64,000 nucleotides of DNA from Eledone cirrhosa (lineage: Eukaryota), in assembly GCA_964016885.1 (NCBI GenBank), contig OZ024743.1, forward strand, positions 336,474,001 to 336,538,000, given 5' to 3'. Each line of letters opens with the position of its first letter. Position 1 is the stretch's first letter. The notes beneath the pieces are model-generated. The model was not told the DNA's origin. It saw only the letters and a program-made list of their open reading frames with translations, and ran no database searches. Both the position numbers and the translations under genes were made by a program. Shown here one piece after another: positions 3,418 through 52,835 of this stretch.

Positions 3418-3700
3418 AAACTCAAGATTGGACAGTTAATTTTCCAAAGCGATCGCGCCAAAAATAGATTCAAAAATGGCTAAGAATCGTGACGTGGCAG
3501 TGGTCAAGTTAGAAAGAATGTGATTAGTTGCTTACGGCGGGTAGGCTGGTTGCTAGAAAGCGCAGCCCAATATCGCCCAATTGTATATCAACTCAGTGGG
3601 AGATTATTAAATATAAAGATTTACATATACATAAAGTCATAGATATATATGTGGCAACCGGTCACGTTGTGGCTCAATGAAGAATTAATAAATTAAATAA

Positions 3701-3797
3701 TTGTTTCTACTTTAGGCACAAGGCCAGCAATTACCCAGTGCATTACCGGTACTTTATTTTATCGACCTCGTAAGGATGAAAGGCTAAGTCAACCTTA
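3701..3797 (-). mobile_element. SINE 3' fragment (octopus OR-like, Nin/Deu-type core)
   Basis: Reverse complement of ...gcctttcatccttacgaggtcgataaaataaagtaccggtaatgcactggg. Confidence 0.8.
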
Positions 3798-4515
3798 AAT
3801 AATGAGAGCAATATATCATAAATCATGTCCTTAGAATTATTAGATAAAATATATACCATTTCCTGTCTGGGAGAGGAAATGGTATATATTTTATCTAATA
3901 ATTCTAAGGACATGATTTATGATATATATATATATATATATATATATATATATATATATATAAATTCAACCATTACAGAAAAATCGTGTAAAAGAGTGAA
4001 AGCGGCGATTCTTTGCTCAAACTTTAATTCGTACAAATAATTAATATTTTCTCTAAGGGTTTTTTATATACTGTATGTTTATCTAAAAGCTTTTTGAAGG
4101 CCATTCGCTGTGAATTTTAAAGTAGTGACTAACGTCACATGCCACGTCCCGGCTTCTTCTTAGCTTCGTATGGACCTATAATAAGACACACACACACACA
4201 CACACACACACACACACACACACACTCACACACACACACACACACACACACACACACACACACACACACACACACACACACACACATGAATACGCACGTG
4301 CACAAGTATAGCTCTTTTAACAAAACGTTTTTTTTCCATTTCAGATAGACGCGCTCCATCATCCACTTTTCTAAAAGACAAATATTACACAAAACGCCAG
4401 CACCACCAGTTTTGCAAGAGATGTCACCATGAATGGACCTGTAATTTTTATCTAAAGACATTTTTTTACAATTCCATCCCGCTCGTTCCCTCAATCTATT
4501 TTATTCATCATTCTT

Positions 4516-4551
4516 TCTTCTGATGAAGGACTAACGTCCGAAACGTTAAGA
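4516..4551 (+). ncRNA. Minimal type I hammerhead ribozyme at the 3' end of a repeat (about 3962-4644)
   Basis: CTGATGA a ggac-taac-gtcc GAAAC GTTA aga; palindromic stem III (aacgtt) typical of PLE HHRs. Confidence 0.8.
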
Positions 4552-5392
4552 TCCTCTACCTGCTATATCAAGCGTTAACCTAATATATACCTTCCATATA
4601 ATGTACCGATTGTGTTGTTATTTCTGTTTACCTTTTACAAACATATATATATATATATATATATATATATATGTATGTTTGTAAAAGGTAAACAGAAATA
4701 ACAACACAATCGGTACATTATATATATATATATATATATATATATATATATATATATATATATATGTGTGTGTGTGTGTTAATTAATTTGTTAATTTACT
4801 TCTCGCACGAAAATGAACACAAAGGAATGTGTGGAATCAGAATATAAAATTTAAAAAAAAACGCTCTCACTTTTACTCTCCCTCTCTCTGCTAGCTACCC
4901 CGTACTTCCACCGTTTCTCTCAACTCTGCCTCTTGTTTTTCTACTCTCACGGAGGGCAGACCTGTCTCTTTTTTTTACTCTCTGTTTCACCGTATTCTCA
5001 GCCTCGGTCTTAAGTCCAGTAGCTGATGTTAACAGCCTTGTCTTTCTCTTCCGTTGTTACGAAACATGATTCTCGTGTTTCCCTCTTCGGTGTGTTTCTT
5101 TCCGTCTTTTTTCTTTCCTTTTCCCCTTCTGTTATATTTTTTCCTCTTTCTCCCTCGATTCTTTCCCCAGTGGCTTCCTTTAGTTATTGACGTACTAGAG
5201 CTGGGAATCTTGTCTTTAATGCGTAGAAATGTCCATGAGCTCCAGAAGACAACTGATGAAACGGAAATTACCCCCCGTTCGTGAATTCCTCTTATTTATA
5301 AATACACTTTATCCACCATCAACACAGCCCCGGTTCCTTCACAAATTTATATATTTATATATATATATATATATATATATATATATATATAT

Positions 5393-49084: not shown

Positions 49085-49445
49085 TGAATACTACTCTGTT
49101 TGACAATATAAGGAATGAAGAGATCCTCCAGCGTGCTGGTCTACCATCTATGATGGAAATACTTAGTGATAGAAATTTACGATTGTTGGAACACATCCAC
49201 AGGTTGGCGAGCAGCAGATTCCCCCAGAAAACTCCTTTACTCCCAACTATGAACTGCGAAAAGAAGCTAAGGAAGACATAGACTAAGATTCAAGGATACT
49301 ACAAAAAGAGATGCGAAGTGGAATGGAATTGACTATAACAAATGGCAAACTCAAGCGAATAACCGACCAGTGTGGAGAGAGCTTAACAAACCATGCCAAA
49401 GTCATGAACAGTCATAGTCGCATTGACTGACTGCTTGATAATGAT
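49085..49445 (+). mobile_element. RTE-clade LINE 3' fragment
   Basis: IRNEEILQRAGLPSM..RNLRLLEHIHRL..RFP, then LRFKD..KRD..W...A..RPVWR. Confidence 0.75.
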
Positions 49446-50837
49446 GTTGATCAGGGTTGACTAGAGCTAAAGACAATGGTAAACCTCGTTATGTAGTTCA
49501 TTGGTTCCCAACCTTTTCTACCACCATGCTCCACCTCAACATCTCAAAAATTGTTATGCCCCCTTTTAATATGAAAACAGCGATGATCAACTGCAAAGTG
49601 TAAATAAATAGTCGTATATGTGGTGCCAGATGTACAATAACATGTGTGAAGGAGGAGGTAAAACAGGAGTTTCTAACAGTATTATGCATCCCCTTGTTAG
49701 TAACAGTAGAGAAACCTACTTCATATGATATCATTGTGAGAGTCGTTAAAATAAGTGCCAGTCAGTTATGATTGGTCTAATTAATCAAGCAGTACCCATC
49801 GGTGGTGAGAAACTCTCAGGAGATCTGGACAACGGCAGGTCTTCTGAGAAGAAAAGCCCCCTCATGCGAGTGTTTTAGCTCACAATATTATCAGAATACG
49901 TACGAGGATTTCAGTGGAACATGATATACTAGGTTTACCCAACTTGTATACTTGAGGGGCCTAAGTAACGTGTTTTATTTTTTTTATTTTGTTTGCTTGT
50001 GTAAATTATTGTTAAAGGAGTTACTATATTGTTAAAGATTAAGTAAATTTATTCCACATACCTACCACCACCATAAATGAAATTTAAGGGTCAGTCGGCC
50101 TCTGTTAAGTTGATATAGTATCCGACTAAAACTGGTACGAATCACATTATAAGCACGGCATTGTGCATAAACTGAAGTCATTTAATTCTCAAATGTTCCA
50201 ACTAACGTTGTTGTTAATGAATTGACATTACGAGGTTTATCAAACGTTTAGATCAACAATGAAAATCGATGGATATAGGTTAATGGAAGTAAAACAAAAG
50301 CTATGTGGTTAATACATCACGCAACCTTAGCTTCGTTTTACTTTCTGTTCCTTTCAAATACTTTCTCTCTATTGGATTTATTTCGGCCACAATCAAAAGA
50401 GTCAGTTTGTCTGTCATAATTTCTATCTCGATCGTTTTATCGTTTGGATTTTAGCTATACCGACAATGTATTCCGGTTTTTAAATACATTCAAATAAATA
50501 TCCCTAAACTTTTAATGTATTAGATAAAATACTGCTTATATTTAAGGTTCTTTACTTATCAAGCTTTCATCTTCAAAGACATATTTTCGCTGCCAGAAAG
50601 TAATTACGCATGGAATCTAAAACCAGGAAGAATCAAGATTCTAATGGTGAGTTCATATCAGCCTAATACGTATATTTTACAGGTATATATATATATATAT
50701 ATATATATATATATATATATATATATATATATATATATATATATATATATATATATATATATATATATATATATATTTATATATATATATATATATATAT
50801 ATATATAGAGAGAGAGAGAGAGAGAGAGAGAAATAGA

Positions 50838-52090
50838 GAGAGAATTAGTACATCTACCAAGATATGTGTACAGATGTACACTCATGCTAGCAAATATAAG
50901 TTATGTCTTAGTACCTATGTGGTTCTATGCAGGGGGATGCAGAACAATTATATGAAAGACGTAAAATAAGAAAATTTAAAAAATTAAAAATCAACTTACT
51001 AAAATTTTCAGTCCAACTAATTAGTTTCTGTAATGGGATAAATATAGTTACATAATATAACTATAGAGAATTCATTACGTCATCGGGGAGTCTATTCTCA
51101 GCTAAGTTCCCAGGCAATGCGCGGACACTAGGAACCCATATAAAAATAATAATTCAGTGGATAGAATAAAGCTAGCGAGGACTAAATTCCGGAGCACTGA
51201 AAAAATTTCACTGCCTCTGGTCAGTGGCAGATTCTAAAGAATCAATCACGTGACACCGGGGTTAATCAGTTAGGAGCGGGGTGGTATTATGACAAGTGCC
51301 TACTACTACCATGAAACAGCAGTAAATTTTGGCAAGTTTTGTTCAACAAATAAGTTGGAGATAAATATAGAGAATTAGTACATCTACCAACATATGTGTA
51401 CAGATGTACACTCATGCTAGCAAATATATAAGTTATGTCTTAATACCTATGTGGTTCTATGTAGGGGGATGCAGAACAATTATATGAAAGACGTAAAATA
51501 AGAAAATTTTAAAAATTAAAAATCAACTTACTTACTAAAATTTTCACTCCAACTAATTAGTTTCTGTAATGGGATAAATATAGTTACATAATATAACTAT
51601 AGAGAATTCATTACGTCATTTTTAATTTTTTAATTTTCTTATTTTACGTCTTTGATGTACTAATTCTCTATATTTATCTCCAAATTATTTGTTGAGCAAA
51701 ACTTGCCAAAATTTACTGCTGTTTCATGGTAGTAGTAGGCTCTTGTCATAATACCACCCCGCTCCTAACTGATTAACCTCGGTGTCACGTGATTGATTCT
51801 TTAGAATCTGCCACTGACCAGAGGCAGTGAAATTTTTTCAGTGCTCCGGAATTTAGTCCTCGCTAGCTTTATTCCATCCACTGAATTATTATTTTTATAT
51901 GGGTTCCTAGTGTCCGCGCATTGCCTGGGAACTTAGCTGAGAATAGATTCCCTGATGACGTAATGAATTCTCTATAGTTATATTATGTAACAATATTTAT
52001 CCCATTACAGAAACTAATTAGTTGGAGTGAAAATTTTAGTAAGTAAGTTGATTTTTAATTTTTAAAATTTTCTTATTTTACGTCTTTCAT
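50838..52090 (-). mobile_element. ORF-less 530-nt-period HHR unit (about 1.5 copies) plus inverted copy from about 51620
   Basis: Direct repeat 50841/51371; HHR 51010-51091 (minus, CCGATGA) and intact HHR 51947-52028 (plus). Confidence 0.8.
51947..52028 (+). ncRNA. Type I hammerhead ribozyme
   Basis: attcc CTGATGA cgtaatg...cattaca GAAAC taatta GTT ggagt; palindromic stem III. Confidence 0.85.
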
Positions 52091-52129
52091 ATATATATAT
52101 ATATATATATATATATATATATATATATA

Positions 52130-52835
52130 ATAACTAGAAATTGATTAGCATATAAATATACATGAATAATCACAGGAGATAATTTTTACACACGTGTAAC
52201 CACGCATAGCTAGTTTGGGTAATAATTAAATTTATACCTTTAAGTATGATTAACCTTCCTTGTATATATCCCATTAAAGAAATATATTTCACCAATTAAT
52301 CAGATGGTAAGTCACGGAAAGTGGATATTATTGGATTGTCAACAAGGAAGAATAATGTGACAGCTATCCATGCTCACACAACGAGTTCAAATCCTCATCT
52401 GGCCGCTACCACGTGTTGTGTCTACACATCACAGCAGCTTCGTTTCAGTGGCATGAATAGGTATTCGACAACTAGAAATAGCAGTCAAATTCCCTTCAAC
52501 AGAAATAGCTCTACAATTAAGGAGCCATATATATATATCTATATCCAAAATTAAGATAAATTAAATGAATGTAATCCAAATCGAAATTGGTGGGTGTCAT
52601 GCCATAACGGCATGCGCCATATCGCCTGGAAATAAGCTCAAAGATATATCCGAGCATTTTATAATAACTAGAAATTGATTAACATATAAATATACATGAA
52701 AAATCACAGGAGATAATTTTTACACGCGTGTAACGACGCATAGCTAGTTTGGGTAATAATTAAATTTATACCTTTAAGTATGATTAAATTCATTCAATTT
52801 TGGATATAGATAAATTAAATTCATTTAATTTTGGA
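52130..52835 (-). mobile_element. ORF-less 534-nt-period unit (about 1.2 copies + short inversions); degenerate HHR at 52255-52350
   Basis: Direct repeat 52131/52665; cttccttg TTGACAA tccaat..attggt GAAA tatatt..gatATA caaggaag. Confidence 0.7.

What the first reader, a model, noticed from the sequence alone, without database searches (positions are those of the whole stretch)
3551..52526. Shared bipartite cis-motif in otherwise unrelated HHR units
Seen, always on the HHR sense strand: CTCC-N3-8-TGTWGAG followed about 20 nt later by RCTGCTRTTTC(TAGC). Examples: 31943-31990 (+), 20211-20265 (+, CCCC variant), 52472-52526 (-), 5801-5856 (-), 51678-51725 (+ inverted copy) and a weaker one at 3551-3603 (-); GGCTGCT alone at the same distance in the 429-nt unit (20060-20066). 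Outside these boxes the families do not align by eye. Inference: a conserved RT-recognition element or internal promoter.
Basis: partly seen in the sequence, partly recalled or inferred. Interest (0 to 1): 0.85.

Follow-up and report, generated by a model that had tools for sequence, protein, structure and literature searches.

The report
Start-site hairpin shared by Penelope parasites
The two boxes are real: the first is one arm of a small predicted RNA hairpin that sits just past both places where copies of one class of jumping gene, and of its protein-free passengers, end, so it likely tells the copying enzyme where to start, while the second is a likely RNA hairpin found only in the passengers whose job is still open.

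Summary
The motif is real: 470 exact genome-wide hits against 0 in the control. All six cited copies have a sense-strand hammerhead downstream. It is two elements, not one promoter. Box 1 is part of a bulged hairpin, GCUC-N-loop-N'-U(U/A/C)-GAGC. Hydra-clade Penelope-like elements carry it twice, between hammerhead and start codon: 32 of 37 non-redundant marine metagenome 5' UTRs have one or more, 27 have two, and 53 of 54 N-N' positions pair. In one autonomous family, 29 of 30 copies end at, or up to 5 nt before, one of the two hairpins. The non-coding hammerhead units end at the same two positions. It is likely the RNA site that positions reverse transcription. Box 2 is a sense-strand hairpin seen only in the non-coding units (0 of 77 metagenome Hydra loci) and in an old unrelated repeat; its role is open. 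The 20211 and 52472 units are one family. The 20060 match is not box 2. This scan already noted the box-1 hairpin on other DNA of this genome. I found no paper describing it.

The parts
31833..31863 (+). Unit A distal hairpin (GUUC/GAAC lower stem, U-A pair, UC bulge, 6-bp upper stem)
   Evidence: ends of this family map 112-120 nt before box 1
31942..31958 (+). Unit A proximal hairpin = box 1 (UCUC/GAGA, C-G, UA bulge)
31976..31990 (+). Unit A box 2 hairpin
32137..32216 (+). Unit A type I hammerhead with long stem II (second copy 31671-31750; period 466 nt)
20212..20229 (+). Unit B box 1 (CCCC variant)
20251..20265 (+). Unit B box 2
20394..20485 (+). Unit B hammerhead, G3-C8 core variant
   Evidence: stems read by eye
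20651..20680 (+). Unit B distal hairpin (G-U pair, UU bulge), in the tail
52636..52655 (-). Unit C distal hairpin (G-U pair, UU bulge)
52508..52525 (-). Unit C box 1
52471..52485 (-). Unit C box 2
52255..52349 (-). Unit C hammerhead, U3-A8 core variant; same family as unit B; period 534 nt
5909..5934 (-). Unit D distal hairpin (A-U pair, UU bulge, 5-bp upper stem)
5840..5855 (-). Unit D box 1
5802..5816 (-). Unit D box 2 (an inverted copy without box 1 at 6010-6024 +)
5565..5699 (-). Unit D hammerhead-like element (CCGAGGA core, long stem III)
51677..51697 (+). Unit E box 1 (second copy 51341-51361 -)
51714..51735 (+). Unit E divergent box 2, folds as a 9-bp hairpin
51948..52027 (+). Unit E hammerhead
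3586..3603 (-). Unit F degenerate box 1
   Evidence: other copies of the family keep the stem
3552..3566 (-). Unit F box 2 variant (inner two pairs lost)
3341..3415 (-). Unit F hammerhead
53507..54817 (-). 5'-truncated Hydra-clade (YRDD) PLE ORF with C-terminal GIY-YIG; full-length copies elsewhere carry both hairpins before the ATG
52846..53506 (-). 3' pLTR of that PLE with long-stem-II hammerhead (52901-53016); ends 2 nt before where the family's distal hairpin starts; unit C adjoins it in the TA tract and is not its pLTR
39816..41076 (-). Fragments of a second Hydra-clade family; its pLTR matches by eye that of full-length elements with both hairpins
16147..16166 (+). Box-1 hairpin without box 2, directly after the end point of a further hammerhead family (core 16041-16082)
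30635..30655 (-). Further box-1 hairpin without box 2
19933..19953 (-). Box-1 variant (GUUC/GAAC, C-G, UU) of the 429-nt unit, directly after its hammerhead (19954-19992)
20060..20076 (-). Octamer plus GGCTGCT of the 429-nt unit; not box 2; resembles U6 upstream elements

Best explanation
Box 1 is part of a predicted bulged RNA hairpin that Hydra-clade Penelope-like elements and their non-coding hammerhead passengers carry twice, and genomic copies end just before one or the other, so the hairpin is likely the site where the element's reverse transcriptase-endonuclease docks and starts copying. Shown: the sequence, the covariation, the positions, the two end points, and the pairing of one proximal with one distal end in two-armed insertions. 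Inferred mechanism: the protein (probably a dimer, as predicted for the anole element PAc) binds the two hairpins on one RNA and cuts TA-repeat DNA. It primes cDNA a few nucleotides 5' of each hairpin, one per DNA strand, which gives back-to-back arms whose ends differ by the 'tail'. The passengers keep this pair of hairpins and a hammerhead, lack an ORF, and would borrow the protein in trans. A tandem or circular RNA template would let the hairpins themselves be copied. Box 2 is a separate sense-strand hairpin at the position where autonomous elements have their start codon. It is kept only by passengers and most likely binds a host or element protein that helps a non-coding RNA be made, kept or loaded. 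My odds for box 2: RNA hairpin role about 0.45, DNA promoter site 0.3, other 0.25.
For: Covariation. In 37 non-redundant Hydra-like 5' UTRs from marine metagenomes (45 of 77 loci had enough 5' sequence), 32 have at least one site and 27 have two. Controls: shuffles 2.3 and 0.1, ORF interior 2 and 0, reverse complement 9 and 1. N-N' pairs are C-G 37, U-A 15, G-U 1, U-U 1; 0 of 10,000 permutations reach 52 Watson-Crick pairs. Upper stems exceed all 500 loop shuffles. The lower stem switches between GCUC/GAGC, GUUC/GAAC and UCUC/GAGA in passengers. End mapping. 29 of 30 copies of one autonomous family end from 5 nt before to 1 nt into a hairpin's CTCC (17 distal, 12 proximal; 1 reads through). 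Four further families end 0-8 nt before a site wherever an end could be mapped. Passenger group 0: 10 proximal and 15 distal of 27 mapped ends (34 loci). Group 1: 11 proximal and 12 distal of 27 mapped (29 loci). Group 2: 1 and 5 of 6 mapped (8 loci). Two-armed insertions pair one proximal with one distal end in 26 of 30 classifiable loci (some insertions counted twice). Two other PLE families in the window show no such hairpin at 7 of 7 ends examined. Published Hydra consensi from sea cucumber and coral show the same hairpin by eye. Precedent: in vitro, the PAc protein starts at two internal sites that match the genomic tail ends (PMC11167929). Box 2. Two outer positions not fixed by my search pattern pair in 36 of 36 (G-C 22, G-U 14) and 31 of 36 representatives, with 34 G-U and no A-C, which points to the sense strand. 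Divergent copies of family E keep a 7-11 bp stem with other sequence. The same interval folds (z below -1.5) in 20 of 36 passengers and 0 of 31 autonomous elements.
Against: No binding or priming data exist here. All ends fall in AT-rich sequence that can pair with the TA target, so end points are blurred by a few nucleotides and microhomology may help choose them. In metagenome loci only 4 of 8 informative ends lay 0-3 nt before a detected hairpin. Five of 37 UTRs lack a detected site. A distal hairpin was detected in only 10 of 38 passenger subfamilies (many are single copies that may lack that region). A strict descriptor found a hammerhead downstream in only 43 of 111 motif loci (7 of 111 in the control). 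In isolated MFE folds the box-1 stem forms in only 16 of 36 passengers, and an alternative helix between the boxes competes. The passenger sample was chosen by the motif, and subfamilies are not independent. No autonomous parent of any passenger family was identified. Box 2's third outer pair holds in only 17 of 36, and no two-sided change was seen in its core outside family E.
Confidence: 0.72

Rival explanations
1. The two boxes together are an internal DNA promoter (Pol II or Pol III) that lets the non-coding units be transcribed.
For: Passengers need a promoter. Spacing between the boxes is near two helical turns (19-26 nt in 35 of 36). Box 2 is nearly invariant across at least 5 non-aligning groups and resembles a MEF2 site with one mismatch (recalled, untested).
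Against: Box 1 has a loop of 3 to about 50 nt, covarying pairs, and two copies per element that track insertion ends. Neither box was seen by eye in the 120-330 nt upstream of 10 U6, 10 U2 or 3 7SL loci. Box 1 occurs without box 2 in autonomous elements. For box 2 alone a DNA site stays possible (about 0.3).
Confidence: 0.1
2. The hairpin acts as single-stranded DNA or a cruciform recognised by the GIY-YIG endonuclease during resolution of the insertion, not as RNA bound by the reverse transcriptase.
For: Metagenome pairs are almost all Watson-Crick (52 of 54). Frangieh et al. cite that the D. virilis Penelope endonuclease needed the tail sequence for DNA cleavage.
Against: The hairpin lies just outside the copied end, so it is absent from that end's cDNA and from the TA target. 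G-U pairs occur in passenger hairpins. In PAc the two ends were shown to be RT start sites on RNA.
Confidence: 0.1
3. The ends are set by AU-rich microhomology alone, and the hairpin serves another step such as translation start, RNA stability or a template-boundary stop.
For: The proximal hairpin lies about 12-55 nt before the ATG in most autonomous elements. Every end is TA-like.
Against: Non-coding units keep both hairpins. Only two of the many AU-rich places in the pLTR are used, and both abut a hairpin in five families with different flanking sequence.
Confidence: 0.06
4. Box 2 is a 3' splice acceptor (TTTCTAG) of a pLTR intron like that of Penelope.
For: It ends in a pyrimidine run plus TAG. 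Penelope and Chlamys-3_cRei have a 5' UTR intron overlapping the promoter (PMC8557442).
Against: The base after AG is always C or U (36 of 36), which fits the hairpin. Family E copies lack the TTTCTAG. I saw no conserved donor site by eye.
Confidence: 0.04

Closest known systems
Hydra clade of Penelope-like elements (Craig et al. 2021, PMC8557442)
   Same: YRDD RT with RWK and DKT motifs, CxCx5C linker, C-terminal GIY-YIG without CCHH, hammerhead, TA-repeat targets. Their consensi Hydra-1_Ajap, Hydra-2_Ajap and Hydra-2_Amil contain the hairpin by eye.
   Different: The Hydra section and the passages read describe no paired hairpin and no link to the ends. Hammerheads here often have a stem II of 40-90 nt, and tails are 80-145 nt rather than the 30-40 bp given for PLEs.
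PAc (Poseidon of Anolis carolinensis) internal initiation (Frangieh et al. 2024, PMC11167929)
   Same: Two RT start sites downstream of the hammerhead that equal the genomic tail ends; both DNA strands cut and extended; predicted dimer.
   Different: PAc starts in an AC-rich stem-loop inside the ORF, and its binding motif was only bracketed (first 172 nt of the ORF). Here the sites are in the 5' UTR, and each is followed by its own copy of one defined, covarying hairpin.
Metazoan non-LTR retrozymes (Cervera and de la Pena 2020, PMC7229834; Li, Clavereau and Pollet 2026, 10.64898/2026.07.22.740005)
   Same: Non-coding tandem units with type I hammerheads, proposed to be PLE-derived and PLE-mobilised.
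   Different: The link in those papers rests on hammerheads, co-occurrence and pLTR homology. Here the units share no alignable sequence with the 9 autonomous pLTR/5' UTR regions tested beyond the hairpin region, yet keep the paired hairpin and the two ends, and add box 2.
SINE/LINE pairs sharing a 3' stem-loop recognised by the LINE RT
   Same: A non-autonomous element keeps a small stem-loop of its partner.
   Different: Here the hairpin is present twice and lies just outside the copied end rather than inside it.

Membership tests
Hydra-clade PLE (autonomous YRDD elements) | C-terminal GIY-YIG in a single RT ORF | tested here: met
   PF01541 at the C-terminus; open frames of 772-785 aa in several copies
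Hydra-clade PLE (autonomous YRDD elements) | RWK and DKT motifs, CxCx5C linker, CxxC and CxH, no CCHH | tested here: met
   Read in the proteins against the definition
Hydra-clade PLE (autonomous YRDD elements) | Hammerhead in pLTR and insertion into (TA)n | tested here: met
   52901-53016; 29 of 30 ends run into TA repeats
Hydra-clade PLE (autonomous YRDD elements) | Placement in the Hydra clade of an RT tree | not tested
   No tree was built; assignment rests on motifs
Non-LTR retrozyme (the six units) | Tandem non-coding monomers with a type I hammerhead | tested here: met
   Periods 466 and 534 nt; hammerheads; no ORF of 120 aa or more inside the units
Non-LTR retrozyme (the six units) | Self-cleavage and circular RNA in vivo | not testable with these tools
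   Needs RNA data or an assay
snRNA/7SL-type promoter element | Same boxes upstream of U6, U2 or 7SL genes | tested here: not met
   Read by eye in 10 U6, 10 U2 and 3 7SL loci; U1, U4, U5, 7SK and tRNA genes not examined
SRP Alu domain mimic | UGU(N)R U-turn with helices 3 and 4 (definition recalled) | tested here: not met
   This genome's 7SL has GCTCC-TGTA..AGCT, but in the hairpin the 'G' is a pairing position that is A in 15 of 54 sites and the base before it varies
Rfam families | Match at or above gathering score | tested here: not met
   0 of 118 matches reach their gathering score; the one over unit D reflects an inverted repeat

The most novel reading that the evidence does not exclude
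A twin bulged hairpin is the clade-wide docking code of a telomerase-related reverse transcriptase. A protein dimer binds the two hairpins of one RNA and primes both DNA strands at a fixed few nucleotides from each. Unrelated non-coding hammerhead RNAs parasitise this by keeping the hairpin pair and adding a second module, box 2, possibly captured from an old repeat, which recruits a host factor or switches the docking hairpin on and off. This would be a defined, portable RNA template-recognition element for a Penelope-like RT.
Probability: 0.45. Interest if true: 0.85.

Novelty: new variant of a known kind. Interest (0 to 1): 0.7.

Why it matters
How Penelope-like reverse transcriptases, the sister group of telomerase RT, choose their template and start internally is an open question. 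The one in vitro study read here bracketed a binding region but defined no motif. A 13-nt-core hairpin with covarying pairs, present twice and abutting both ends, gives exact mutants and rescues to test. It would explain the tail and the back-to-back arms. It would also give a sequence rule for assigning retrozymes to the PLE clade that moves them when nothing else aligns, and might allow RNA cargo to be addressed to such an enzyme. Box 2 marks a requirement specific to non-coding passengers.

Tried and rejected
Promoter of snRNA or 7SL type: neither box upstream of U6, U2 or 7SL by eye. SRP Alu mimic: rejected, see membership test. tRNA-like cloverleaf, histone stem-loop and MEF2 site: resemblances recalled from memory; none fits the variation seen and none was tested beyond inspection. 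Unit C as pLTR of the adjacent YRDD ORF: rejected; that family's pLTR is different and ends before unit C. A parent for the passengers: 9 autonomous pLTR/5' UTR regions against 38 subfamily representatives gave one match at E 1e-4, covering only the hairpin region. Alternative helix between the boxes: 24, 33 and 22 of 36 paired at the first three positions, with 8 C-A mismatches at the first; inconclusive. Box 2 as a host-selected site in the old repeat: exact in only 2 of 24 copies chosen by a neighbouring 17-mer, so it decays there. Expression: no RNA holder listed. Four contig sets of unknown kind showed no joint at the box-2 AG and say nothing about expression. Viral contigs: no Hydra relative among 22 candidate stretches. 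Two pattern hits lie in unrelated coding sequence and were dismissed as chance. First hammerhead finder missed U3-A8 cores with a U-U pair at the base of stem II and was loosened. Errors corrected: two ORFs read on the wrong strand (their rows are not used); two loci on the wrong strand, redone. Literature searches that found no description of either box; supplement searches 88 (4 files, 1 not searched) and 89.

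
Full report
Setting. The window is G000:C4:336474001-336538000 of a 3.0-Gb animal genome. It is AT-rich, full of TA microsatellites and of Penelope-like element (PLE) fragments.

Observation. The six copies are present as described, and each has a type I hammerhead downstream on the same strand. Units B and C use G3-C8 and U3-A8 core variants, which a plain CTGANGA search misses. The strict bipartite pattern has 470 exact hits genome-wide against 0 for the reversed pattern; two variant patterns have 81 and 52 against 0. 111 motif loci fall into 18 groups and 38 subfamilies by downstream sequence. 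With the motif masked, groups 0, 1, 2, 5, 7 and 11 show no similarity to each other or to the rest at E below 1e-3, while several small groups link into one superfamily. Units B and C are one family. The GGCTGCT at 20060-20066 is not box 2.

Box 1 belongs to autonomous elements too. I fetched full-length relatives of the YRDD ORF at 53507-54817. [quoted passage not shown] Five families carry CTCC-N6-7-GTYGAGC starting 42 nt before the ATG and a second, long-looped copy 110-145 nt further upstream. Seven more Hydra-like 5' ends among the fetched loci show a box-1-like site by eye, two of them damaged. A profile search of metagenome contigs returned 77 Hydra-like loci; 45 had enough 5' sequence and 37 were non-redundant. 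Of these, 32 have at least one GCUC-N-loop-N'-UN-GAGC site and 27 have two. Controls gave 2.3 and 0.1 (shuffles), 2 and 0 (ORF interior), 9 and 1 (reverse complement). With no pairing filter, N-N' is C-G 37, U-A 15, G-U 1 and U-U 1, and upper stems are deeper than in all 500 loop shuffles. Published Hydra consensi of sea cucumber and coral contain it by eye; the octopus and sea-louse consensi show weaker variants.

The hairpins abut the insertion ends. In one autonomous family 29 of 30 copies pass into TA repeats from 5 nt before to 1 nt into the CTCC of one of the two hairpins (17 distal, 12 proximal); one reads through into the next ORF (correcting). In four other families the mappable ends lie 0-8 nt before a site; several copies were truncated, unaligned or ran off the fetched stretch. 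Passenger ends cluster 3-23 nt before box 1, and at a second position 90-155 nt upstream that depends on family. A distal hairpin lies a few nucleotides after that second position, with N-N' = A-U, U-A, G-C or G-U and lower stems GCUC/GAGC, GUUC/GAAC or UCUC/GAGA (10 of 38 subfamilies). Where both arms of a back-to-back insertion could be classed, 26 of 30 pair a proximal with a distal end (some insertions appear twice). Among metagenome loci, 4 of 8 informative ends lie 0-3 nt before a detected hairpin. Seven ends of two other PLE families in the window show no such hairpin.

Mechanism. Frangieh et al. showed in vitro that a Poseidon-type protein starts at two internal RNA sites equal to the genomic tail ends, cuts and extends both strands, and is predicted to be a dimer. 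The simplest reading here is that each hairpin docks one protomer, which primes a few nucleotides 5' of it. This is inference; no binding was measured. The variable loop (3 to about 50 nt) argues against a double-stranded DNA site. Against the reading: ends are TA-like and microhomology may contribute, the isolated box-1 stem forms in only 16 of 36 MFE folds, and no parent element aligns with a passenger.

Box 2. It is absent from all 77 metagenome Hydra loci and was not seen after box 1 in this genome's autonomous families; one family has a partial look-alike inside its hammerhead stem II. Its outer pairs, not fixed by my search, are compatible in 36 of 36 and 31 of 36 representatives, with 34 G-U and no A-C, favouring a sense-strand RNA hairpin; the third pair holds in only 17 of 36. 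In 664 kb scanned without a box-2 filter, 13 of 54 box-1-like sites had a hammerhead downstream. Six of these had box 2 at 13 of 16 or better, four were family E copies with a hairpin of different sequence, and three were unclear or partial. The interval folds in 20 of 36 passengers and 0 of 31 autonomous elements (the passenger set was chosen by box 2). The 15-mer has 14,579 hits against 6. By eye 13 of the first 30 lie in an old dispersed repeat without box 1 or hammerhead. There it decays (2 of 24 exact). One passenger (L232) shares about 25 nt with that repeat, so capture is possible. Its function is unresolved.

What is known. Retrozymes as PLE passengers, Hydra PLEs and internal initiation are in print. 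Papers seen: Li et al. 2026, parts 1-3 of 5; Cervera and de la Pena 2020, passages; Craig et al. 2021, passages, the Hydra section and supplement parts 1, 2, 52, 53; Frangieh et al. 2024, parts 1-2 of 4; Matetovici et al. 2016, listing and supplement search only. Eight searches found no description of either box; subscription journals and Repbase were not covered. Earlier notes of this scan describe the box-1 hairpin and the two-armed insertions on other DNA of this genome. I had reached the hairpin reading, before reading them; the two-arm count followed their lead.

Verdict. Real, and an apparently undescribed cis-element within known element classes. The RT-recognition reading is likely right for box 1; the promoter reading is unlikely except for box 2. 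Interest 0.7.

Noticed in passing
window 19684-20207 (-): The 429-nt hammerhead unit has ATGCAAAT (5' end at 20076) with a TATA-like box 42 nt later, against 46-48 nt in three U6 genes; the hammerhead core follows 88 nt after the octamer and a T4 run lies at the unit's end. It may be a retrozyme with a captured U6-type Pol III promoter.
   Followed up: partly
window 52255-52349 (-) and 20394-20485 (+): One family's hammerhead varies the C3-G8 core pair to U3-A8 and G3-C8, natural compensatory variants, with a U-U pair at the base of stem II.
   Followed up: partly
L410-L433: An old, abundant dispersed repeat of about 200 bp contains box 2 in its majority sequence; a neighbouring 17-mer has 678 exact hits, with local tandem arrays on C1 near 217.04 and 271.30 Mb. 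Its class was not determined.
   Followed up: partly
L031-L050, L106-L111: U6, U2 and 7SL genes lie in tandem arrays (C19, C3 and C13, C12). U2 and 7SL share a TGTAGA-TAGTAAAA-like element about 50 nt upstream; some U6 upstream regions are interrupted by a SINE-like repeat.
   Followed up: no
L142, L210-L229 (ORF start): The codons for G-M-S..N-I-P at the start of this genome's Hydra ORFs form a 7-10 bp hairpin about 38 nt after the proximal site (by eye); it may be a by-product of the protein sequence.
   Followed up: no
L389-L403: A Hydra lineage with GGCUC/GAGCU stems and an ACGG lead-in like passenger groups 0 and 1; a candidate partner, but similarity is confined to the hairpin region.
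   Followed up: partly
window 41593-47670, 20748-22574, 57193-58318; 7995-12643, 22896-27719: Two other PLE families with short hammerheads; one ends about 80 nt inside its ORF, as PAc does, and neither shows the hairpin.
   Followed up: partly
L152-L156, L166-L167: Box 2 occurs in pairs 230-310 nt apart in small repeats on C1, one with a CCGGAAG motif between the copies and one with an inverted copy next to it.
   Followed up: no
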